IMG/VR virus record: IMGVR_UViG_3300046744_000065 | Span: 1 to 40,001 of that record | Strand: one strand, 5' to 3' | DNA length: 40,001 nt | Source of the DNA: a virus | Taxonomy: Duplodnaviria; Caudoviricetes | Shown: in pieces, positions 2 through 40,001 of the stretch | How the letters are laid out: the number at the start of each line of letters is the position of its first letter | Numbering within the stretch: the stretch's first letter is position 1 | Position numbers and translations under genes: made by a program | The notes under the pieces: model-generated | Seen by the model: only the letters and a program-made list of their open reading frames with translations | Told to the model about the DNA's origin: nothing | Databases searched by the model: none

Positions 2-2926
2 AATGAGTTTAGTGATTTAACTGATCCAAGGCAACAAGAAATACAAATGCAAGAAGCTATTCACAATGAAGCAAGAGCAAGATTTTTATCTGTAGAGTTG
101 AGATTTTTATCCAAATCAATGCAACCTGTACGTTATCAAGTTGCTGCTGCAAGGCAAGTAGCTAAAGAATTATTAGCTAAAAAAAGATTAAGAGATATTA
201 GACCCTCAAGATTTAGTAGAAACGAAACTAAAGCTGCAAAAAATGTAGAAGCAGCTATGAAAAAAGCTGATACGTTAGAAGCAATAAAAGCAAAAAAATC
301 ACAGTTATTAAACAATCAATTAGCTAAAGAATCATTAGAAATAATAAAACAATTTGATAACGCAACTAAATTATTTAGAAGCGTATTTCAAACAGATAAA
401 ACATTAGATAAGAAAAATTTTAATACTGATTTAGTTAATGTCGCAAAATCTATTTTAGCTGCTTATGGATTTGGACCTGCTGTTGATAAACCATCACAAT
501 ATACAGAAAAATTACAAGCATATAATCCTGATATGTTTGAACAATTACGTCCGTTAATAGAGGATTTAACTAGAGAAAGTAATCAAGATATTAAAAATTT
601 AACTTACGAAAAATTTGAAACTGTATACGAAACAATACAAACATTAATGTTTCAAGCAAGACGAGATAAGCAAGTTGAAATAGATGGCAAAATATTAGAT
701 TTAGAAGTGCCTGTAAATGAGTTATTGGAAACAATGGCAAGAATGGAAACACCTGATCCAGTAGGAGCTACAGAGTCACCAAGCACTAGAACAAGATTTG
801 CTAGAGCAATGCAACAAGGTAAATCAATGTTAAGACGTATAGAACATTGGGCAGATGGTATGGATGGTGCAACCAAAACTGGTAAAGGTTTAATTGGTAG
901 TGTTGTTTTAGAACGTGATGAAATCCAAGCTGGTCCATTTACAAGATATATTTGGCGGCCAGTAAAAAATGCCCTAAATAAATACAGAATAGAAAGATCA
1001 AATTACACTAAACGCTATTCACAAATGATAAGTAAATTAGATTTAGGTCAAGGTCTTATTACATCTGGAGAATTAGGGTTTACATTTGGTAATGCAAATG
1101 GTCAATACGGTAAAGTCGAAATTCTTGGTGCTATGTTGCATACAGGAAATACAAGTAACTTAAGGAAATTATTATTAGGTCGAGGTTGGGGTGATATTAA
1201 TGAAGACGGTTCATTAAATACAAGTAGATGGGATACTTTTGTAGATCGCATGATTAATGACGGAATTTTGACTAATGAAGATTTTGTGTTTTTACAAGAA
1301 GTCTGGGATTTAAACGAAGAAATAAAACCACTAATACAACAAGCTCATAGAAAAATTTATGGATATTATTTTAAAGAAGTAGAAGCAACACCTACAGTTA
1401 ACAGGTTTGGGTCATTTAGAGGTGGTTACGTTCCAGCCAAAACAAGTCCTTTTTTAGTTGCTAATACAGAATCAAAAGCAAAATTAGAAGATTTAAGAAA
1501 TGAATTTAGACAATCATTGCCTTCTACTGGTAATGGTTTTACTCAAGAACGTGTGGAATATAACAAGCCATTATCATTAGATTTACGATTAATGACTAAG
1601 CATATTGACGATACGATACGGTTTGCGTTTGTACAACCTGCAATAGAAGATGTATTTAAAATTTTAAAAAATAAAGATGTATCTACACGTTTGCAAGAAA
1701 TAGATCCAACAATTATGGACGATGCATTAATGCCTTGGCTTAATCGTTCTGCTAGGCAAACAACTATGGTTGCAGGTCGGTTTAAAGGATTTGATAAGTT
1801 TTGGACAAAAGTTAGAGCCAGTACTGGTGTTGGGATTATGTTTGCAAATATAAGAAATGGATTGCAACAATTTACTGGATATTTCCCTGCAATGATAAAA
1901 GTAGGACCGTCATATTTAAAAAATTCATTAGCTCAATATGTACAAAACCCAATGCAATTTCAAGAAGAAATAGCAGAACTATCACCTTTTATGAAAGAAC
2001 GTCAGTTTAACCAAATATTTGATGTGCAAGATACGTTAAATCAATTATTAATAAATCCAAATCAATATCAAAAAATTCAAAAATGGGCAGAAAGGCACGG
2101 ATATTTTATGCAACAAGCATTTCAAAATCAAGTTGATACTGTAGTCTGGTCTGCTACTTATAACAAAGTTTTAACAGAAAGCCCAAAAACAATGTCTGAA
2201 ATTGATGTACAAAAAGAAGCTATACAACAAGCAGATGCAAATGTGCGTTTAACACAAGATAGTTTACAGGCAGAAGATTTAGCAGCATTTCAAGTTGGGT
2301 CACCTTTTTATAAAACTATGGTTCAATTTGGTGGATATTTTAATATGATTGCAAATTTAAATGCAACACAATATAAAAAATTATTTAAAGATTTAGGATG
2401 GCGAGGAACAAAAGGGCAATTGTTTATGACATATTTATTAGGTTTTGCTTTACCGGCATTTGTTGCAGATTTAATTGTAAGAGCAACAGGTGGTGATCTT
2501 GATGATGAAGACGAAGATGGTTATTTAGATGATGTCGCAGGTTGGTTTTTTAATTCACAATTTAGGTCTGCATTAGCTTTAGTACCTTTTGGGAATATTG
2601 CAATTGTTCCATTTAATTCATTTAACGATTTACCATATGATGACAGGATGACTCTTAGCCCATCTATTTCAACATTAGAAGCATCAACTGTTGGTACTGC
2701 TAGAACTCTTATCAATGTTGCAGATCCTGATAAAGAACTTACAGGAAAAAATGTGAGAGATATATTATCATTAATGACTTTAATTACTGGTATACCATTT
2801 ACATCTATAGGCCGTCCAATTAGTGTTCAGTTCGATATTAATAGAGGTGTTATAGAGCCGGAAAATACACCAGACTATATAAGATCATTAATAACAGGTA
2901 AAGCTAGTCGCAAGAGTCGGGAGTAA
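2..2926 (+). CDS. C-terminal part of large internal virion (ejection) protein, 5'-truncated by window edge
   Basis: Frame is open from position 2 (NEFSDLTDPRQQEIQ) into the ATG at 47. Helical protein with a hydrophobic segment near the C-terminus (LFMTYLLGFALPAFVADLIV), directly upstream of tail fibres. Probably the continuation of the ORF starting at 34768. Confidence 0.75.
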   Translation, partial: NEFSDLTDPRQQEIQMQEAIHNEARARFLSVELRFLSKSMQPVRYQVAAARQVAKELLAKKRLRDIRPSRFSRNETKAAKNVEAAMKKADTLEAIKAKKSQLLNNQLAKESLEIIKQFDNATKLFRSVFQTDKTLDKKNFNTDLVNVAKSILAAYGFGPAVDKPSQYTEKLQAYNPDMFEQLRPLIEDLTRESNQDIKNLTYEKFETVYETIQTLMFQARRDKQVEIDGKILDLEVPVNELLETMARMETPDPVGATESPSTRTRFARAMQQGKSMLRRIEHWADGMDGATKTGKGLIGSVVLERDEIQAGPFTRYIWRPVKNALNKYRIERSNYTKRYSQMISKLDLGQGLITSGELGFTFGNANGQYGKVEILGAMLHTGNTSNLRKLLLGRGWGDINEDGSLNTSRWDTFVDRMINDGILTNEDFVFLQEVWDLNEEIKPLIQQAHRKIYGYYFKEVEATPTVNRFGSFRGGYVPAKTSPFLVANTESKAKLEDLRNEFRQSLPSTGNGFTQERVEYNKPLSLDLRLMTKHIDDTIRFAFVQPAIEDVFKILKNKDVSTRLQEIDPTIMDDALMPWLNRSARQTTMVAGRFKGFDKFWTKVRASTGVGIMFANIRNGLQQFTGYFPAMIKVGPSYLKNSLAQYVQNPMQFQEEIAELSPFMKERQFNQIFDVQDTLNQLLINPNQYQKIQKWAERHGYFMQQAFQNQVDTVVWSATYNKVLTESPKTMSEIDVQKEAIQQADANVRLTQDSLQAEDLAAFQVGSPFYKTMVQFGGYFNMIANLNATQYKKLFKDLGWRGTKGQLFMTYLLGFALPAFVADLIVRATGGDLDDEDEDGYLDDVAGWFFNSQFRSALALVPFGNIAIVPFNSFNDLPYDDRMTLSPSISTLEASTVGTARTLINVADPDKELTGKNVRDILSLMTLITGIPFTSIGRPISVQFDINRGVIEPENTPDYIRSLITGKASRKSRE

Positions 2927-12552: not shown

Positions 12553-13110
12553 TTATCTAAATTGTGGTCCGTCCATCCAAGCAACAAGACTATATCTTGT
12601 GCCAGATGTAACAGGTTTAACTCTGTGTACCACCCATGATGGGAAAACACAATATGACCCTGCTTGCATTGGAATTGTTACTTGCTCTTGATTAAGAGGG
12701 TTGTAAATTTCAAATTCACCTCCTTTAAAATTATCATTTACTAAAAATGATATAGATAATTTTCTTGTGCGTTGATCTTTTTCTTTTATAGGAGATTGAT
12801 CAATGTGCCATCTATACTCTTGATTCTTTTCGTATTTTGTAACTTGTATATTATCTGAAAAGTGTATTAAATCATAATGAAAATAATCTGTGTTTGTATT
12901 TATCATTATGTTATGTAGAATGCCGGCAATCCAACTATCTACATACAACCAAGCGTTTGTTGATGACCGTGAAGTATTATCACCTGTTGCACTTGATTGA
13001 TAATCACCGCTTTTGCAAGTCTTTAATATTTCTTTAATCATACTTTTAGGTAAATATGAATTTGCATGAATACAAGTTCTTTCTGCAAAACATCTATTAT
13101 AATTTTCCAT
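12553..13110 (-). CDS. 2OG-Fe(II) oxygenase (prolyl-4-hydroxylase-like)
   Basis: WHID...RKLS...GGEF...FPS...HRVKPVTSGTRYSLVAW: HxD...H iron triad and RxS. Confidence 0.9.
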   Translation of the reverse strand: MENYNRCFAERTCIHANSYLPKSMIKEILKTCKSGDYQSSATGDNTSRSSTNAWLYVDSWIAGILHNIMINTNTDYFHYDLIHFSDNIQVTKYEKNQEYRWHIDQSPIKEKDQRTRKLSISFLVNDNFKGGEFEIYNPLNQEQVTIPMQAGSYCVFPSWVVHRVKPVTSGTRYSLVAWMDGPQFR

Positions 13111-22487: not shown

Positions 22488-22530
22488 TAATGACATCACA
22501 GATAACATTTAGATGTATATCAAATTATTT

Positions 22531-23040
22531 ATGAATAGTGTGACCGTAAGTCCTGACAATACAGCTACTGTTGACGAAAGTAGAGTACCCAAAACCATCA
22601 TCAAACTCTGCACAGTAGATGAAGTAAAGGGAAAGTTGGATTTATTATTTCTTGAGCATTACAAAGAGATTGCTCGCAACAAAGGAATAATGAAACTAAA
22701 ACCAAACTACCCAATGTATTATGCAACTGAAAAAGTTGGAGCATTATTTATTCAAGTAGCTGTGCAAAGAAATGTTTTTATTGGTTATTCTATAAATTTT
22801 GTTAGTAATCATTTTCATTATGCCGACTTAAAGTATTGCCAGAATGATGTCTTGTTTATCAAGAAGGAATATAGAGGTGGTCGAGTTGGATTAAGGTTAA
22901 TGAAAGCTACAGAAAAACACGCAAAATCACTTGGATGCAAACTTATGCTGTGGCATTGCAAAGAAAACACTCCATTAAATCAAATTTTACCTAGATTAAA
23001 TTACGGAGTACAAGACATTATTTATTCTAAGGAGTTGTAA
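22531..23040 (+). CDS. GNAT-family acetyltransferase
   Basis: DVLFIKKEYRGGRVGLRLMKATEKHAKSLG acetyl-CoA binding motif A; start may be 22513 or 22531. Confidence 0.8.
   Translation: MNSVTVSPDNTATVDESRVPKTIIKLCTVDEVKGKLDLLFLEHYKEIARNKGIMKLKPNYPMYYATEKVGALFIQVAVQRNVFIGYSINFVSNHFHYADLKYCQNDVLFIKKEYRGGRVGLRLMKATEKHAKSLGCKLMLWHCKENTPLNQILPRLNYGVQDIIYSKEL
22538..22571 (+). promoter_or_regulatory. Putative late promoter, copy 2 (GTGTGACCGTAA-N16-TACTGT)
   Basis: Same 12-mer and spacing; lies inside the 5' end of the GNAT ORF. Confidence 0.65.
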
Positions 23041-25403: not shown

Positions 25404-25748
25404 ATGAGTGAATACAATCCTCTCGACCTCAAAAGTCAACAGAAATCTAAAGACAATAAAAAGTCTGAAGAAAGAATTGACCGCCAAAATGAAGAGTCGG
25501 ACATCAAATGGTTGATGAGCAGCAAGAGGGGTCGCAGATTAATCTGGAGACTTCTGGAGCAAGCAGGTGTTTTCCGATCATCGTTCAACACTAACGCAAT
25601 GGCAATGTCATTTAGCGAAGGTAACAGGAATTATGGTTTGCAAATACTAAACTTAATTCACACTCTCTGCCCAGAGCTATACCCGACAATGATTAAGGAG
25701 CAAAAAAATGTCAGACACGCTGATGACGGAAGCCAACCAAACAAATGA
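25404..25748 (+). CDS. Bbp19-like head assembly protein
   Basis: D.KWLM....GRR..WRLL...G...MSFSEG.RN.GL motif; between portal and scaffold. Confidence 0.8.
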   Translation: MSEYNPLDLKSQQKSKDNKKSEERIDRQNEESDIKWLMSSKRGRRLIWRLLEQAGVFRSSFNTNAMAMSFSEGNRNYGLQILNLIHTLCPELYPTMIKEQKNVRHADDGSQPNK

Positions 25749-26394
25749 AGGCGATACGCAGCAGCCAGTAGACGCAACAACTGAGCAATCAACTGAAGCA
25801 ACTACTGACACACAGCAGCAAGCTGAAGCTGTACAGGATCAACAAGGTTCGGATGAATCCTCTGTTGAAAGTGAAACTAGCGAATCAGAAGCACCCGAAG
25901 GTGCACCTGAGACATACGAGTTTAACGATAAGGTGGCTGACGCACCAGAAGAACTCGACCCCGAAGTCTTAACTGCATTCGGTGAAGTCGCTAAAGAACT
26001 TGACCTGCCACAGGACGCTGCACAAAAAGTAATTGACAAGGTTGCACCTGTCATGCAAGCCAGACAAGCAAAGATGGTTGAGCAAGTAAGAGTAGATTGG
26101 GCAAATGAAGCAAAAGCCGACCAAGAATTTGGTGGTGAAAATTTAAATGCCAATCTTGAAGTTGCTAAATCATCTTTAAATACGTTTGGTACTGATGCTT
26201 TGAAGTCGCTGCTGCAAGAATCTGGCTTGGGAAATCATCCCGAAGTAATTCGGTTTATGTACCGAGCAGGTAAGGCAATTAGTGAAGATGCTTATGTTGG
26301 TAATTCACAGGGTGCTAATGCTAAAAGCAATGGTATTCCTAAAGATTTTGACGGCATAGCAAACGCACTATATTCAAATCAGCAAAACAAGTAA
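25708..26394 (+). CDS. Capsid scaffolding protein
   Basis: Acidic disordered N-terminus, APETY, GLGNHP..IR......K.ISED; precedes the major capsid gene. Confidence 0.8.
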   Translation: MSDTLMTEANQTNEGDTQQPVDATTEQSTEATTDTQQQAEAVQDQQGSDESSVESETSESEAPEGAPETYEFNDKVADAPEELDPEVLTAFGEVAKELDLPQDAAQKVIDKVAPVMQARQAKMVEQVRVDWANEAKADQEFGGENLNANLEVAKSSLNTFGTDALKSLLQESGLGNHPEVIRFMYRAGKAISEDAYVGNSQGANAKSNGIPKDFDGIANALYSNQQNK

Positions 26395-34767: not shown

Positions 34768-37700
34768 ATGTCTGATAATCCTTTTGACATTATAAAAAAA
34801 TCACCAAGTCAAAACTATGGTAATGATAATCCTTTTGACCTTATACGAGAAAAAAGAAATCAAAGAAATGATAATTTAATAAAACAAACTTTAAATGCTG
34901 TTTCTAAATTAGATCCTGATAGAACTGGTGAAGCACAAAAATTAGCAGAGCGTTTAAATTTACCGTCAAACATTGCTTTAGATAGTGATGAAACTTTAAG
35001 ACTTTTAAAAGAAAGAAATAAAGAAAGAAATATATATGAATTGGATTTAGCACAAACAAATCCTATATTGATGCGTCATTTAACTGATCCTGATTTTGCA
35101 GCTATAGCACAAGATAATGTTGAGCAGTTAGGTCTTATTGAATCAACATTTTCTGGAATACAAAATTTTCCTGAGAACGTTGGACAAGGTTTTGAAAAGG
35201 GAAGATTAGAAGCTGAAATGGGTAAGCTTGGATTTCAAAAAGGTTTAAACGTAGAGTTAGGTAAAACTAATGAATCTATAAATAAACGTATAGAAGAAAT
35301 TGGTGTAAGACTAGCAGAACTAGAAGGTGATGGTTCGGGTCTTTGGGAAAACACAGGTTCTATTGTTGGTCAATGGTCACGGACATTACAAGAATCAGTA
35401 AAATATGGAACGGCAGGTGCTGCTACAGGTGGAACACTAGGATTAGCAGGTGGTCCTTTTGCTCCTATTACAGTTAAAGGTGGTGCAATTACTGGATTTA
35501 TATGGGGATTAACAACAGGCTCTGCAAAAGAAGGAGCAATGATAGAAGCAGGTCATCAATACAATGAATTAATAGAAAATGGTATTTCGCACGAAACTGC
35601 AAAAAATGTTGGAATTGCAGTTGGCCTTGTAAATGGTGGATTAGAATTTGTAGGTCTTGGTCTGGTTTTAGGTCCGGCAAAACAATTGTTAATAAGAGCA
35701 ACACTAAAAGAAGTAAATAAATCTTTGAGAAAATACACAATGCAGCAGGTATTTAGAACAGCAGGTACGACTGCTTTTCGTAATTGGGCATCAGAAGTTG
35801 CAACAGAAGAATTACAAGAATTGGTAAATATTGCAGGTGCTGATTTTGCAGATTATTTTGATACAGGTGAGTTCGAAAGTAAATTTGCTACAGAAAAAGG
35901 TAGAGAAGAAATAGCACAAAGACTTGCTGCTGTATTTGAAAAAGTTGGTACTGGTATGATTCCACTTGCAGGTTTAAGTGCAGGGCCTACATTTTTTTCA
36001 AATAGTACAAAATCTAAAGAAGCAACAAAAAATACTGCATTTGTAGAATCACTAGCTACTTTATCTGCTAACGATAAAACTAAAATTAGAAATCCTAATA
36101 AATTTCAAAAATATATACAAGACGTAGCAGACGGAAAAGACGTTCCTAATATTTTTATAGATGCAAAACCATTTAATCAAGCATTAAAAGATAACGGTAT
36201 AACAACAGAACAATTAGAAATGTTTTCTCCGCAAATAGCAAATGATTTAAAAGATATAAATGGTACTGGAGAAAGTGGTGATCTAATAATACCAACAGGA
36301 GAATATGCAACAAACATTGCAGGTACTCAATTAGGTAATGCATTACAACCTCATATTCGTGTTACAGAAGATAGTTTTAGTGCTACAGAAGCAGGGGTAT
36401 TTGAAACTGAAAAAGATACATTAAAAAAACAGGCAGAACAAATAATAAATAACGATGAAAATGCAAAAAAAGAATTAATAAAAGAAGGTAAAGCTATAGA
36501 AGAAAATATTACACAACAATTAAAAAATGCAAAACTAAAAGCTTTTACACCTAGTCGAATTAAATATTTAGCACCTTTAGTAAGAGATTTTGCAATAGTG
36601 CAAGCAAATCAATTAGGAATAAAACCTAGTGAATTTTTTAGTAAATATTTTTACAACATAACTACTGACGATAAATTTAATAAATTAGCAGAAGAACAGT
36701 TGTTTAATCAGGATGGCACGGTAAAAACAGAATCACCTGCGTTTAAAAACTTTTTTGGCCAATCTAAAATAGTTGACAAAGATGGTTCTCCTTTAGTTGT
36801 ATATCATGGAACTACAGACAGCATAAGCGAATTTAAATTAGATCATCCGCATAGATTAGATAGTGGTTGGTTAGGTACTGGAGTTTATGTAACTGATAAT
36901 ATTCTCTTAGCTGAACAATATACAAAATTAAAAAAAGAAAGAATTAAATCAGGTCGTTTACCACCCGGTCCTACAGATCCAATAATTATGCCTTTGTATG
37001 TGCGTTTAGAAAATCCATACGAAGCAACTTTAGAAGATAAAAACAAAATTAGAACAGGTCAAATAACAGCACAAGGATTTAGAGATCAATTAATTGCACA
37101 AGGACATGATGGTGCGATAATGCCGGGTCAAATGCAAAATGTTAGGGAAATAGTTGTATTTGATCCTAAAGCAGTTAAATCAACAGAAAATAGTGGCACA
37201 TGGAGAAGGGATCTAGCAAATATATATAAACAATTAAAAGCTGATGATGAGCTTTTTGCACAGAGAGGTAAACAAAAACAAGGTAAGCCAGTACCAGAAG
37301 CTGTATTTCAAATTGCAAAAATAACTGAAAATTTTGATTTTGCAACTAGTAAACCATTTGGAACTATTAAAGATTTTAAAATAGAAATACAAAAGAAAGT
37401 CAACAATGAAGCTAAAAAAGGTAAAGTTAATGTTTCTGAACCTACCGTAGAAGTAGAAAAATATTTAGTAAAAACATTATTAGCAGATGCTCAATACGCT
37501 TTAGTAGAAAATCCAAACGCAATAGGTTGGTACAACGAAAAAGTTACAAAAGCTAAAAGGTTATTAGCAAAAATACATCCAGAATTAACTACTGATGCAG
37601 CATCAAATTTTGCTTTTACTTGGGCATTAGCAACTACATCTAACGGTATAGATGTAAATACAAATTTTGACCTTGCAGAAGATGTGTACAGTTACTGGAA

Positions 37701-40001
37701 ACAAAATGGTAAGTTTCCAACACCTTATGGGCAGGGCAAAGCAGGTCGTGCTATGTCAAAAAGTTTTAAATTAATAAATGAATTAATTGAGAAAAACGGT
37801 GTAGAAGATGTAGAAAAATTTATGAGTACAACACATACAGTAAAAGAAGTAGAAACATATACAGGTGTTGAAGTTACAGATTTCGGTAAAACAGAAATAG
37901 TTTATGGTGCTGCTGTTATTGGCCCTAAAATAGGTAATGGATTTTTTGCAAATCTATATGGTAATTATGAACAACTAACTTTAGATAGATGGGCTATGCG
38001 TACATGGGGTCGCATGACAGGTACGTTAGTTACTGATTATACAAAGCAAGCTAGAAATAAACGTGACCAATTAAAACAATATATAAAAGCTTTAACCAAA
38101 AAACAAAAAAAAGAATTTGAAACAATCCTTGGTAGAAAACTTACATTAGGTGATTTAGATGCAGTTGCAAAAAGAATAGAGACTAGAACAACCATACCTG
38201 CTAATCGTAAATTAATGGCAGCAATATCTTTAATTCAACCTGATAACAATGTTGGTGAAATAATAACAAACATTAAGGGTAAACCTATAAAAGGTGAACC
38301 CAGAATAAGTATTGGAGATGAAATTCGTAAGGCAGGTAATTCATTGGCAGGGTATTTAGATGGTCAAAAAGAACAGCCTAAAGGACCACCAGAAAGAAGA
38401 TTTATAGAAAAAGTTTTTGGGCAAGTGTTGCCAGTATTGCAACAACAAGAAAAAAATCTGACTATGGCAGATTTGCAAGCACTTATGTGGTATCCAGAAA
38501 AAAAATTATATGATACTGCAAAATTAAAAGAAACAGTAGTAGAAACAGGTTACGAAGATAACGCAGCACCTGATTATGCCAATGCTGCTGCAAGTTTAGT
38601 TGCTAGAATGGGTATATCAGAAGCTGACATACAATCTACATTACAGGAGGTAGACAATGAGTTATCAGTACAATCCGAGGAGCAATCAGGAGACACACAA
38701 CGAAATGTTGGAGAATCTGGATCTGTACGAGGAGTTGATACTTTCCAACAACAAGGACTTGAATCAGAAGGAACAAACATTGACGAGACCACAGGACTCC
38801 CCCTTAATGCAGACGGAACAGTTACCGTCTACCACCACACCAGTAGAGCAAACGCAGAACGAATCAAAGATACAGGTGAACTCAGAAGTGCTTCAGAACC
38901 TGATGTCTACGTTACCACCAGAGCTATCGCAGATACTGGCTATGGCGATACAGCAGTTGCCATCAGAGTCGAACCTTCTAGACTTAGTCTCGATGATGAA
39001 TTCCCTAACGGACGAAGAGATTACAGACTCTCAGTTGGAAAGCCTAGAGGATCTATTCGAGTAGATGTAGGAGAGTTTGCACAACAACAAGAATCTGAAG
39101 GTCCTAGAGGACAGTTTAGCCCGACAACATTAACAACAATACTTACACAAGAAGCAGATTTTTCTACGTTTTTACATGAGACAGCACATTATATGTTGAC
39201 CGTTATGGAAGACATAGCAATGTCTGGAAAAGGTTCAGAACAACAAAATAATGATTTTCAAACATTGTTAGACTTTTTTGGTGTTAAAGATATACAAACA
39301 TGGAGCAAGTTATCGTTAGACGAAAAAAGAAAATATCACGAAAGTTTTGCATATAATTATGAAATTTATTTATTTGAAGGCAAAGCACCAAATAATAAAT
39401 TACAAGAAATTTTTAATGAATTTCAAAAATTTTTAAAACGAATATATAAAACAATAACTGATGAGTTAAATAAGCTATACAGACAAGAAAACGGTACAGA
39501 TTTACCAATACTTACTGATGAAATAAGAAGTGTAATGGATCGTATGATTGCTAGTGAAGAACAAATCACACAAGCAGAAGCAATATATGGAATGAAGCCT
39601 ATGTTCCAAACACAAGAAGAAAGTAATATGGATGACGCTACATGGAAAGAATATAGCGATGCAATAAAACAAGCACAGGATGAATCATTGCAAAAATTAA
39701 CTGAAGCTAGTATGCGACAAGTAAAATGGCTAGGTAATGCTAAAGATAAATATATTAAAAATTTACAAAAAGATGTAGCAAATACTAGAAAAAAAGTAAT
39801 GCAAGAAGAAACTAATAAAATAGAAAAAGAAAAACTATATCAACTACACGCATTTTTAAAACGTGGTGAATTTATAAATGATAATAACGAAAGAGTTGTA
39901 GCAGGTGACGGTTACAAAATAGATATAAATTCTTTAAAAAATTCAATACCATTTTTTGATATGAGTGAAATTATTAAAAAATTTGGCCGTGGTAAATATG
40001 G
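34768..40001 (+). CDS. Giant polyvalent internal virion protein, 3'-truncated (ART, HhH-like, ART, HExxH peptidase domains)
   Basis: ATG at 34768 (MSDNPFDII...) with no stop seen to the window end (~1744 codons; absent from the ORF track, consistent with no stop). Motifs: VYHGT at 36799, GPKIG at 37921, VYHHT at 38827, HETAH at 39175. Confidence 0.85.
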   Translation, partial: MSDNPFDIIKKSPSQNYGNDNPFDLIREKRNQRNDNLIKQTLNAVSKLDPDRTGEAQKLAERLNLPSNIALDSDETLRLLKERNKERNIYELDLAQTNPILMRHLTDPDFAAIAQDNVEQLGLIESTFSGIQNFPENVGQGFEKGRLEAEMGKLGFQKGLNVELGKTNESINKRIEEIGVRLAELEGDGSGLWENTGSIVGQWSRTLQESVKYGTAGAATGGTLGLAGGPFAPITVKGGAITGFIWGLTTGSAKEGAMIEAGHQYNELIENGISHETAKNVGIAVGLVNGGLEFVGLGLVLGPAKQLLIRATLKEVNKSLRKYTMQQVFRTAGTTAFRNWASEVATEELQELVNIAGADFADYFDTGEFESKFATEKGREEIAQRLAAVFEKVGTGMIPLAGLSAGPTFFSNSTKSKEATKNTAFVESLATLSANDKTKIRNPNKFQKYIQDVADGKDVPNIFIDAKPFNQALKDNGITTEQLEMFSPQIANDLKDINGTGESGDLIIPTGEYATNIAGTQLGNALQPHIRVTEDSFSATEAGVFETEKDTLKKQAEQIINNDENAKKELIKEGKAIEENITQQLKNAKLKAFTPSRIKYLAPLVRDFAIVQANQLGIKPSEFFSKYFYNITTDDKFNKLAEEQLFNQDGTVKTESPAFKNFFGQSKIVDKDGSPLVVYHGTTDSISEFKLDHPHRLDSGWLGTGVYVTDNILLAEQYTKLKKERIKSGRLPPGPTDPIIMPLYVRLENPYEATLEDKNKIRTGQITAQGFRDQLIAQGHDGAIMPGQMQNVREIVVFDPKAVKSTENSGTWRRDLANIYKQLKADDELFAQRGKQKQGKPVPEAVFQIAKITENFDFATSKPFGTIKDFKIEIQKKVNNEAKKGKVNVSEPTVEVEKYLVKTLLADAQYALVENPNAIGWYNEKVTKAKRLLAKIHPELTTDAASNFAFTWALATTSNGIDVNTNFDLAEDVYSYWKQNGKFPTPYGQGKAGRAMSKSFKLINELIEKNGVEDVEKFMSTTHTVKEVETYTGVEVTDFGKTEIVYGAAVIGPKIGNGFFANLYGNYEQLTLDRWAMRTWGRMTGTLVTDYTKQARNKRDQLKQYIKALTKKQKKEFETILGRKLTLGDLDAVAKRIETRTTIPANRKLMAAISLIQPDNNVGEIITNIKGKPIKGEPRISIGDEIRKAGNSLAGYLDGQKEQPKGPPERRFIEKVFGQVLPVLQQQEKNLTMADLQALMWYPEKKLYDTAKLKETVVETGYEDNAAPDYANAAASLVARMGISEADIQSTLQEVDNELSVQSEEQSGDTQRNVGESGSVRGVDTFQQQGLESEGTNIDETTGLPLNADGTVTVYHHTSRANAERIKDTGELRSASEPDVYVTTRAIADTGYGDTAVAIRVEPSRLSLDDEFPNGRRDYRLSVGKPRGSIRVDVGEFAQQQESEGPRGQFSPTTLTTILTQEADFSTFLHETAHYMLTVMEDIAMSGKGSEQQNNDFQTLLDFFGVKDIQTWSKLSLDEKRKYHESFAYNYEIYLFEGKAPNNKLQEIFNEFQKFLKRIYKTITDELNKLYRQENGTDLPILTDEIRSVMDRMIASEEQITQAEAIYGMKPMFQTQEESNMDDATWKEYSDAIKQAQDESLQKLTEASMRQVKWLGNAKDKYIKNLQKDVANTRKKVMQEETNKIEKEKLYQLHAFLKRGEFINDNNERVVAGDGYKIDINSLKNSIPFFDMSEIIKKFGRGKY
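38657..39064 (+). CDS. Nested out-of-frame ORF (135 aa, acidic)
   Basis: AGGAGG at 38645-38650, 6 nt before the ATG; +1 frame inside the giant gene. Confidence 0.5.
   Translation: MSYQYNPRSNQETHNEMLENLDLYEELILSNNKDLNQKEQTLTRPQDSPLMQTEQLPSTTTPVEQTQNESKIQVNSEVLQNLMSTLPPELSQILAMAIQQLPSESNLLDLVSMMNSLTDEEITDSQLESLEDLFE

What the first reader, a model, noticed from the sequence alone, without database searches (positions are those of the whole stretch)
36700..39189. Recurring [FY]-x-Q motif at every domain boundary: candidate self-cleavage sites of a phage polyprotein
Seen: LFNQ (36700, before ART1), IYKQ (37222, after ART1), LFAQ (37252, before the HhH-like domain), TFQQ (38740, before ART2) and EFAQ (39073, between ART2 and the peptidase). 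The motif flanks each cargo domain and is followed by an intact HExxH peptidase. Inference: the peptidase cuts at or near these sites to release individual effectors after packaging or injection. The sites may also mark the modular units swapped between phages.
Basis: partly seen in the sequence, partly recalled or inferred. Interest (0 to 1): 0.75.

Follow-up and report, generated by a model that had tools for sequence, protein, structure and literature searches.

The report
Cut-site code inside split phage peptidase
A giant protein of a marine short-tailed phage carries the same three-residue tag (Leu/Phe/Tyr-x-Gln) at the joints of a string of swappable enzymes, that string is predicted to sit in a loop of the protein's own zinc-protease domain, and the tag likely marks where this protease would cut the enzymes free, although no cut has been measured.

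Summary
The five motifs are at the stated coordinates, in a ~2,776-aa Bbp10-family protein of a BPP-1-like podophage. In the window alone the signal is weak (12 [FY]xQ against 6.9 expected; four lie inside cargo domains). Relatives make it strong, and the motif is really [LFY]-x-Q. It precedes the HExxH half in 114 of 148 relatives from separate 50%-identity clusters (shuffled 28). It marks 42 of 67 two-sided swap points found without the motif (about 15 expected). The same ART domain ends in this tag in 31 of 31 proteins that bear this peptidase clade and in 0 of 10 that do not. New: cargo-less relatives and a model indicate that the cargo is inserted between strands 1 and 2 of the zincin itself. 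Best reading (0.6): the zincin cuts before the hydrophobic residue, freeing ART, HhH-GPD and ART modules. No cleavage is shown, no dead-peptidase relative was found, and some joints lack the tag. MPTase self-processing was proposed in 2017 without a site. This scan earlier noted other junction tags in other giant phage proteins.

The parts
34768..40001 (+). Giant Bbp10-family polyvalent protein, aa 1-1744 (open at the window end), likely an ejection protein
   Evidence: phrog_9880; 36% to BPP-1 Bbp10 over aa ~1447-1724; lies after tail tube and internal virion genes
2..2926 (+). C-terminal continuation of the same gene (circularly permuted contig; ~150 bp missing at the break); full length ~2,776 aa
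   Evidence: window end and start map to L001 10333-10932 and 11083-11682; protein halves 84% and 92% identical to L001 aa 1-1744 and 1796-2775
34891..35166 (+). LPD22 domain (aa 42-133), conserved N-terminal scaffold
   Evidence: PF18834 E 1.8e-11
36550..36669 (+). Pre-cargo helices and strand 'YNITT' (aa ~595-634): predicted N-terminal helix and strand 1 of the zincin
   Evidence: inferred from cargo-less relatives, model strands E66-69/E86-89/E94-97 and zincin matches starting at model residue 27-32; not assigned as a strand in the window's own model
36700..36711 (+). Tag 1, L-F-N-Q (F646): start of cargo; may also be a structural hairpin of ART1
   Evidence: [FYL]xQ in 38 of 38 close relatives; pLDDT block 77 with a beta-bridge near residue 646
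36775..37194 (+). ART-PolyVal ADP-ribosyltransferase-fold module (ART1)
   Evidence: E 1.5e-16; ART/PARP fold matches, model 66-229
37222..37233 (+). Tag 2, I-Y-K-Q (Y820): ART1 C-terminal tail
   Evidence: 34 of 38; this tail position reads [LFY]xQ in family proteins and IRFS/IRYS/IRKS etc. in others
37252..37263 (+). Tag 3, L-F-A-Q (F830): start of HhH-GPD module, in a predicted disordered linker
   Evidence: 38 of 38, Q832 invariant; pLDDT <50 at aa 827-836
37438..38574 (+). HhH-GPD glycosylase-fold module (DUF7178-like)
   Evidence: 3n0u Z 10.9, NTHL1 8.3, MagIII 8.1; DUF7178 E 0.009, below cut-off
38740..38751 (+). Tag 4, T-F-Q-Q (F1326), in a predicted disordered linker; the least conserved joint
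   Evidence: 30 of 38; pLDDT block 24; absent in L014, L021, L027, L028, L033
38773..39075 (+). Second ART-fold module (ART2)
   Evidence: TreTu Z 6.5, Tpt1 5.3: middling; Tox-ART-HYD1 E 0.057, below cut-off
39073..39084 (+). Tag 5, E-F-A-Q (F1437): end of cargo, 10 aa before the RG strand
   Evidence: 38 of 38; same position in 114 of 148 distant relatives and 28 of 29 relatives found by the C-terminal scaffold
39106..39549 (+). Second half of the zincin-like MPTase: RGQF strand, LTTIL strand, HETAH (39175-39189), HESFA Glu1525 (39340-39342)
   Evidence: (H, E, H and distal E invariant)

Best explanation
The Leu/Phe/Tyr-x-Gln tag sits at the joints of a string of swappable enzyme modules that is predicted to be inserted into a loop of the protein's own zinc-peptidase fold, and this peptidase likely cuts at the tags to free the modules. 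Steps: (shown) a conserved scaffold encloses a variable cargo region of 4 to 2,462 aa between a conserved helix-strand and the RG strand of the HExxH half, and the tag is enriched at both ends and at module joints. (Predicted) The pre-cargo helix and strand are the N-terminal helix and strand 1 of a gluzincin (HExxH plus distal Glu), so the cargo is a loop beside the active-site edge strand. (Inferred) The tag is read in extended form with L/F/Y as P1' and Q as P3', so the cut would fall before the hydrophobic residue, in cis or between the copies in the head. (Inferred) The freed ART1 (~19.5 kDa), HhH-GPD (~55 kDa) and ART2 (~12 kDa) would act in the host cell, while the two scaffold halves (~71 and ~153 kDa) could stay joined through strand 1. 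(Unknown) Whether this happens at assembly or only after ejection. I favour after ejection, because tethering is what would bring the cargo into the head (inference).
For: Tag before the RG strand: 42 of 44 non-redundant cargo regions (background 13%; composition-shuffled 12.0 +/- 2.8). Also 114 of 148 representatives of separate 50% clusters, found with a profile that left the tag out (shuffled 28.3 +/- 4.5, max 45), and 28 of 29 relatives found by the C-terminal scaffold alone (several near-copies). Both ends tagged in 76 of 107 relatives with cargo >100 aa. Two-sided swap points in a hold-out set: 42 of 67 (random 14.9, shuffled 14.1). Protein-level constraint: codons vary (TTT/TTC/TAC/CTN/TTG; CAG 14, CAA 11) across loci of 33-67% GC. 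The tag belongs to the host protein, not the ART fold: ART tails read [FYL]xQ in 96 of 100 instances in proteins with this peptidase clade and 2 of 33 in others; under a stricter filter 31 of 31 against 0 of 10 proteins. Register: Pro 0 of 202 at the middle position but 36 of 202 just before the hydrophobic residue and 21 of 202 just after Gln. Metallopeptidase read-out is strongest at P1', then P3 and P3' (PMC3630115, passages). Thermolysin needs aliphatic or aromatic P1', and Pro at P2' blocks Ste24/ZMPSTE24 (PMC7948416, passages). Tags 3-5 lie in or next to linkers with pLDDT <50, the internal look-alikes in folded parts. Split fold. HExxH intact in 29 of 29 relatives found without using it.
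Against: No cleavage has been measured for any member that I found. N4 vRNAP bears an HExxH domain yet was purified full length (PMC13492108, passages), and Iyer 2017 lists N4 vRNAP, ArdC and TraC1 as unprocessed. No relative with a dead peptidase turned up, so joint loss could not be tested. The peptidase is kept in cargo-less relatives, one with a 4-aa loop and no tag (P0259), so it has a job beyond cargo release. The cargo-tag association (3 of 11 cargo-less against 65 of 74 long-cargo; Fisher p 6e-5) is not significant on independent pairs (6 pairs, 3.3 with, 0.2 against, p ~0.25). All 246 hold-out breakpoints, one-sided ones included, gave only 74 against 51 (random max 77). Some joints lack the tag (ART2|M5 0 of 5; HhH|ART2 15 of 22). 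Two conserved [FY]xQ lie inside the HhH-GPD module. The window's own model did not place YNITT in a strand (pTM 0.47). Zincin Z-scores are middling (best 6.7). The ART tree is unresolved, so repeated tag switching is not proven.
Confidence: 0.6

Rival explanations
1. The tag is a binding signal that is not cut: it docks on the zincin groove or another scaffold surface to fold, pack, silence or thread the cargo in the head and during ejection, and the peptidase acts on something else (a host protein or the cell wall).
For: It explains the clade-specific tag and the Pro pattern as well as cutting does. The peptidase persists without cargo or tag (P0259). N4 vRNAP stays whole. The phi24B preprint proposes a cell-wall role for the peptidase of its giant ejection protein (section 5).
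Against: A single docking site per protein fits poorly with up to five copies at every joint. A catalytically intact HExxH plus Glu is kept throughout. The P1'/P3' spacing matches known metallopeptidase subsites.
Confidence: 0.2
2. The tag is a by-product of how modules spread: each module was copied with the short linker of its donor, and the linker is kept as a structural cap (for tag 1, a hairpin of ART1), not as a signal.
For: Joints are inherited, so counts are not independent. LFNQDG forms a bridge in the model, and some relatives keep F..DG without Q (LFTPDG, LFDNNG). The tag is lost at some joints.
Against: The same ART domain ends differently in other scaffolds, and 9 of 15 non-family ART domains have a family ART as best BLAST hit. 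The tag is kept at under 50% identity while its flanks turn over. No DNA-level word is conserved.
Confidence: 0.11
3. The tag is cut, but by another protease (a phage head protease or a host enzyme), as head proteases of T4 and phiKZ cut internal proteins at short motifs (recalled).
For: PHROG names 25708-26394 'protease' (phrog_458, E 8e-47).
Against: That protein looks like an acidic, low-complexity scaffold and has no Pfam peptidase match. BPP-1 capsid proteins are uncleaved (PMC3863775, passages). The tag is shared across phages of Bordetella, Caulobacter, Vibrio, Pseudomonas and Nostoc and tracks the in-protein peptidase clade.
Confidence: 0.07
4. Chance in Gln-rich linkers.
For: Linkers are Gln-rich; the window has only 12 against 6.9 expected.
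Against: Composition-matched shuffles never reached the observed counts (and the two-sided set). After F, Gln is at +2 in 63% of cases against 8-28% at other offsets.
Confidence: 0.02

Closest known systems
Phage-type polyvalent proteins with a zincin-like MPTase (Iyer et al. 2017, PMC5512222; I read the abstract, sections 8, 9, 32, 33 and searched passages; the FTP supplements were not seen)
   Same: Large late-region protein with LPD22, ART-PolyVal and an HExxH MPTase. The paper proposes that the MPTase processes such proteins into functional units, before packaging or after injection.
   Different: Its main text names no site or motif: 'linker' 0, 'boundar' 0, and 'cleavage site' only in a reference. 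In the sections I read it does not describe cargo inserted inside the MPTase fold.
BPP-1 Bbp10 family (annotated 'crystallin beta/gamma motif-containing protein' or 'lysis protein'; also Caulobacter JessA gp39, Cobetia Carin1 gp32, Limnohabitans DC33, Pseudomonas AF gp16)
   Same: Same gene position and scaffold; 36% (BPP-1) to 52% (DC33) identity over the peptidase half. Tags flank the cargo in cultured phages: BPP-1 QFDQ...KFYQ, JessA SLTQ...LLAQ, PS25B.1 VLEQ...LLRQ.
   Different: The record annotations mention no peptidase or processing. Cargo differs: 175 aa in BPP-1, one ART in JessA, three modules here.
Gluzincins: thermolysin, Ste24/ZMPSTE24, PPEP, ArdC MPTase, proabylysin/selecase
   Same: HExxH plus distal Glu; the model of a cargo-less relative matches these folds (Z 3.7-6.7). 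The tag fits hydrophobic P1' read-out.
   Different: No sequence match to solved structures. The domain is interrupted by up to 2.4 kaa of cargo. Activity untested.
N4 virion RNA polymerase (HExxH in C1 subdomain; PMC13434306 and PMC13492108, passages)
   Same: Giant ejected protein with an internal zincin-like HExxH motif.
   Different: Purified recombinant protein was full length: a caution that HExxH need not mean self-cleavage in vitro. No sign that it belongs to this scaffold family (not among the 40 listed of 49 hits).

Membership tests
Phage-type polyvalent protein (Iyer 2017) | Several biochemically unrelated domains in one large polypeptide, with LPD and ART-PolyVal domains | tested here: met
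   LPD22 and ART-PolyVal above Pfam cut-offs; HhH-GPD and second ART fold in the model
Phage-type polyvalent protein (Iyer 2017) | Encoded among late virion genes | tested here: met
   After portal, capsid, tail tube and internal virion genes, before tail fibre genes
Phage-type polyvalent protein (Iyer 2017) | Packaged in the virion and injected | not testable with these tools
   Inferred from gene position; no proteomics for this family was found
Bbp10 family | Homologous scaffold on both sides of the cargo, same gene position | tested here: met
   phrog_9880 at aa 215-634, at the peptidase half and at 47-2923; BPP-1 Bbp10 E 4e-46; N-anchor profile hits all 12 fetched isolate or environmental phage records
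Zincin-like MPTase (gluzincin type) | HExxH helix plus a distal Glu in a later helix | tested here: met
   H1470, E1471, H1474 and E1525 invariant in alignments A2 and A4
Zincin-like MPTase (gluzincin type) | N-terminal helix plus three-stranded sheet before the HExxH helix | tested here: inconclusive
   Met in the model of cargo-less relative P0181 (pLDDT 84; three strands; zincin hits, best Z 6.7). In the window's own model only two strands are assigned. Strand pairing is not printed by the tool.
Zincin-like MPTase (gluzincin type) | Zinc-dependent proteolysis | not testable with these tools
   Needs an assay
Self-processing polyprotein | A recurring site at module joints | tested here: met
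   with the exceptions
Self-processing polyprotein | Site is lost when the protease is lost | tested here: inconclusive
   No dead-peptidase member found (29 of 29 intact); proteins lacking this peptidase clade carry other tails (0 of 10)
Self-processing polyprotein | Cleavage at the site by the encoded protease | not testable with these tools
   No experiment possible; none found in the papers searched
HhH-GPD glycosylase superfamily (middle cargo) | HhH-GPD helical fold | tested here: met
   Z 10.9, rmsd 4.2, 198 of 209 aligned to 3n0u; many HhH-GPD rows follow; activity and substrate not tested

The most novel reading that the evidence does not exclude
BPP-1-like podophages use a 'cassette loop' peptidase. 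The zincin of the largest ejection protein is split around an expandable array of effectors and excises them at x|[LFY]-x-Q, while the scaffold halves stay clasped by strand complementation. Each MPTase clade imposes its own tag on any module that moves in (xQ here; IRFS-type elsewhere). If the cut is before L/F/Y, every freed effector would begin with a bacterial N-degron (ClpS rule, recalled), giving a built-in timer. This would be a general, programmable protein-delivery device in thousands of phage lineages (3,947 representatives at E <= 1e-10).
Probability: 0.35. Interest if true: 0.85.

Novelty: new variant of a known kind. Interest (0 to 1): 0.66.

Why it matters
Self-processing of phage polyvalent proteins was proposed in 2017, but I found no site named in print (searches; Iyer's FTP supplements unseen). 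A concrete site, a predicted register and predicted fragment sizes make the question testable in cultured phages with harmless hosts: Caulobacter phage JessA has one ART between two tags. The tag also gives a rule for cutting thousands of unannotated giant phage proteins into their cargo domains, a route to new anti-host effectors. A protease that carries its substrates inside its own fold would be an unusual architecture.

Tried and rejected
Complex prediction of the window's two zincin halves plus Zn with the linker aa 815-846 gave 'no answer' (score 0.02, mark 0.32); it is not used either way. The window's 1,015-aa model did not rebuild the split sheet. Sequence searches of solved structures found no relative of the peptidase, ART1 or the full protein; Foldseek on PDB gave nothing at E <= 0.001. 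The scan of genome contigs found no relative. The first all-against-all BLAST failed on a parameter and was redone. One-sided BLAST ends proved too noisy to define joints. The ART tree did not finish in careful mode and is star-like (4 of 48 branches starred). The independent-pairs test of cargo against tag was underpowered. A DNA-level recombination word was rejected. The strict [FY]xQ form was rejected as too narrow: 28 of 148 against 114 of 148 for [FYL]xQ. A cut after Gln, as in TEV/3C proteases (recalled), was judged less likely because Pro follows Gln in 21 of 202 tags. Literature searches gave no virion proteomics for Bbp10, Carin1 gp32 or relatives; the BPP-1 paper has 0 mentions of Bbp10. 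Look-ups of this scan's notes by sequence and by family words found nothing.
Full report
Setting. The window is a near-whole, circularly permuted ~40 kb podophage genome with BPP-1-like head and tail genes (GP7 capsid, Bbp16, portal). The closest listed capsids are 82-85% identical (Limnohabitans phage DC33, zth2-2 and spring viruses); the host is unknown. The finding lies in ORF 34768-40001, which continues at 2-2926; about 150 bp are missing at the break, and relative L001 gives a full length of 2,776 aa. The protein has LPD22 and ART-PolyVal domains, matches phrog_9880 on both sides of a gap and is a Bbp10 relative. Its position after the tail tube and internal virion genes suggests the largest ejection protein (inference).

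Observation. The same 1,744 aa hold 12 [FY]xQ against 6.9 expected; four (aa 663, 987, 1067, 1217) are inside cargo domains. In 38 close relatives [FYL]xQ is kept at 38, 34, 38, 30 and 38 of the five named sites. It is kept at 1, 6, 38 and 34 of the four internal ones. An AlphaFold model of aa 580-1594 (39 sequences, mean pLDDT 76, pTM 0.47) puts tags 3 and 4 in stretches under pLDDT 50 and tag 5 at the edge of one. Tag 2 is at a helix end (54-70), tag 1 in a hairpin (77), and the internal words in folded parts (84-87). Structure search confirms ART, HhH-GPD and a weaker second ART fold for the three modules.

The tag marks swappable modules. From 250 family proteins, 234 had both anchors (16 fragments dropped), giving 163 different cargo regions and 44 clusters at 70% identity. 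[FYL]xQ lay within 16 aa before the conserved RG strand in 42 of 44 and within 24 aa after the N-terminal anchor in 34 of 44; the scaffold background was 13% and 19%, and shuffled windows gave 12.0 and 16.8. BLAST breakpoints found without the motif gave 84 joints in 33 proteins. [FY]xQ lay within 15 aa of 41 (random 14.8, max 25) and [FYL]xQ of 57 (23.6, max 36); [FY]xE/N/K/D were depleted. L020 and P0048 have the modules in another order with breaks at tags, and L034/L035 add one or two modules that each end in a tag. Exceptions: ART2|M5 0 of 5, HhH|ART2 15 of 22. These joints are inherited, so they are not independent events.

Hold-out tests. A profile of the peptidase half without the tag found 7,631 representatives (E <= 0.001); the best 150 were listed. 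Two lacked upstream sequence, and two were also in the first set. Of 148, 114 have [FYL]xQ before RG (shuffled 28.3 +/- 4.5), only 28 the strict [FY]xQ; 135 match if S or A may replace Q (shuffled 67.7). In 100 of them with cargo over 150 aa, two-sided joints carried the tag in 42 of 67 (random 14.9, shuffled 14.1). All 246 breakpoints, one-sided ones included, gave only 74 against 51. Of 29 further relatives found by the C-terminal scaffold, all have HExxH, 28 the tag before RG and 24 at both ends; about a dozen are near-copies. Codons under the tag vary freely across loci of 33-67% GC, so the constraint is on the protein.

The tag follows the peptidase clade. A search with one ART domain returned 89 giant proteins. 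The tail after the ART's closing 'N.G.FD' word read [FYL]xQ in 96 of 100 instances in proteins scoring >= 60 bits with the family peptidase profile. It did so in 2 of 33 instances in the others, which read IRFS, IRYS, IRKS, ILRS, ILES and similar. A stricter filter demanded the ART's first-strand word upstream; 41 of the 89 proteins passed, Met was allowed as first residue, and IRFSQ was not counted. It gave 31 of 31 against 0 of 10. The ART tree shows no clustering by host protein (14 changes, shuffled mean 13.2) but is unresolved, so one origin is not excluded. For 9 of 15 non-family ARTs the best BLAST hit is a family ART.

The cargo sits inside the peptidase. In 125 representatives with both anchors the cargo spans 4 to 2,462 aa; 11 have 45 aa or fewer. 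In these the conserved helix and strand run straight into RG-x-F, a second strand and HExxH. The model of one, P0181 aa 560-791 (15 sequences, pLDDT 84, pTM 0.85), has strands at 66-69 (pre-cargo), 86-89 and 94-97, then the HExxH helix. Its structural matches are mostly zinc peptidases: lethal factor catalytic domain Z 6.7, PPEP-2 5.5, ArdC 4.9, proabylysin 3.8. The minimal ones align from model residue 30-32 (91 of 105 and 93 of 109 residues). Iyer et al. define the MPTase core as a three-stranded sheet after an N-terminal helix. So the pre-cargo segment likely supplies that helix and strand 1, and the cargo fills the loop before the edge strand. Caveats: the Z-scores are middling, contacts are not printed, and the window's own model did not assign YNITT as a strand.

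Register. In 114 end tags and 88 start tags Pro never occupies the middle position. It precedes the hydrophobic residue 36 times and follows Gln 21 times; 143 ART tails also show no Pro in the middle. Metallopeptidases read P1' most strongly, then P3 and P3' (PMC3630115, passages). Thermolysin needs aliphatic or aromatic P1', and Pro at P2' blocks Ste24 (PMC7948416, passages). A cut before L/F/Y, with Gln at P3', fits these rules better than a cut after Gln. This is inference by analogy.

Against. No cut is shown. No dead-peptidase relative was found. The peptidase is kept without cargo, even with a 4-aa loop and no tag (P0259). Cargo-less members carry the tag less often (3 of 11 against 65 of 74) and are scattered on the tree (at least 6 forced changes), but six independent pairs cannot reach significance (p ~0.25). 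N4 vRNAP has an HExxH domain and purifies whole. The phi24B authors assign the peptidase of their giant protein to the cell wall, untested. A non-cleaved docking role fits most of the data too (0.2). The neighbouring gene labelled 'protease' looks like a scaffold, and BPP-1 capsid proteins are uncleaved.

What is known. Iyer et al. 2017 proposed MPTase processing; the main text gives no site, and the FTP supplements, which I could not see, may bear on this. PMC9503650 (passages) adds none. Nine paper searches showed no report of this tag or of processing in the Bbp10 family; most subscription papers are outside the library. I also read passages of PMC13730344 and PMC12002296, which did not bear on the tag. 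This scan's own unreviewed notes describe different junction tags in other giant phage proteins. They are not independent evidence, but they suggested looking for peptidase-tag coupling, which I tested here by another route.

Verdict. A real, family-wide junction code; a new variant of a known kind. Likely self-cleavage by a zincin split around its cargo (0.6). Interest 0.66.

Noticed in passing
window 25708-26394: PHROG labels this gene 'protease' (phrog_458), but it lies between portal and capsid genes, is acidic and low-complexity at the N-terminus and has no Pfam peptidase match: likely a scaffolding protein.
   Followed up: partly
PDB 9k3a chain B, residues 1418-1601: A chain of the cyanophage A4 pre-ejectosome matches ART1 (Z 8.6, rmsd 3.7, 121 aligned). 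The paper's main text has 0 mentions of 'ribosyltransferase': possibly an unnoticed ART cargo in a solved ejection complex.
   Followed up: partly
L001 and L005 against window aa 631-1479: Both are 98% identical to the window in the peptidase half, but 72% and 94% over the cargo region: recent exchange of cargo alleles.
   Followed up: no
L051 (Pseudomonas phage AF gp16, aa 807), L052 (CP2, aa 926), P0271, P0291, P0302: A second HExxH domain occurs as cargo inside the array; several of these proteins carry PF18838.
   Followed up: no
L005:5699-10318: The giant gene stops at 1,540 aa, shortly after HExxH, and resumes in another frame; assembly error or pseudogene.
   Followed up: no
window 22513-23040 and 12553-13110: A GNAT acetyltransferase between terminase and portal genes, and a 2OG-Fe(II) oxygenase among the replication genes.
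   Followed up: no
window 38657-39064 (+, other frame): A 135-aa ORF overlaps ART2 in another frame; probably not a gene.
   Followed up: no
P0131: Four stretches match the peptidase profile in one 2,496-aa protein, and it lacks the tag before RG.
   Followed up: no
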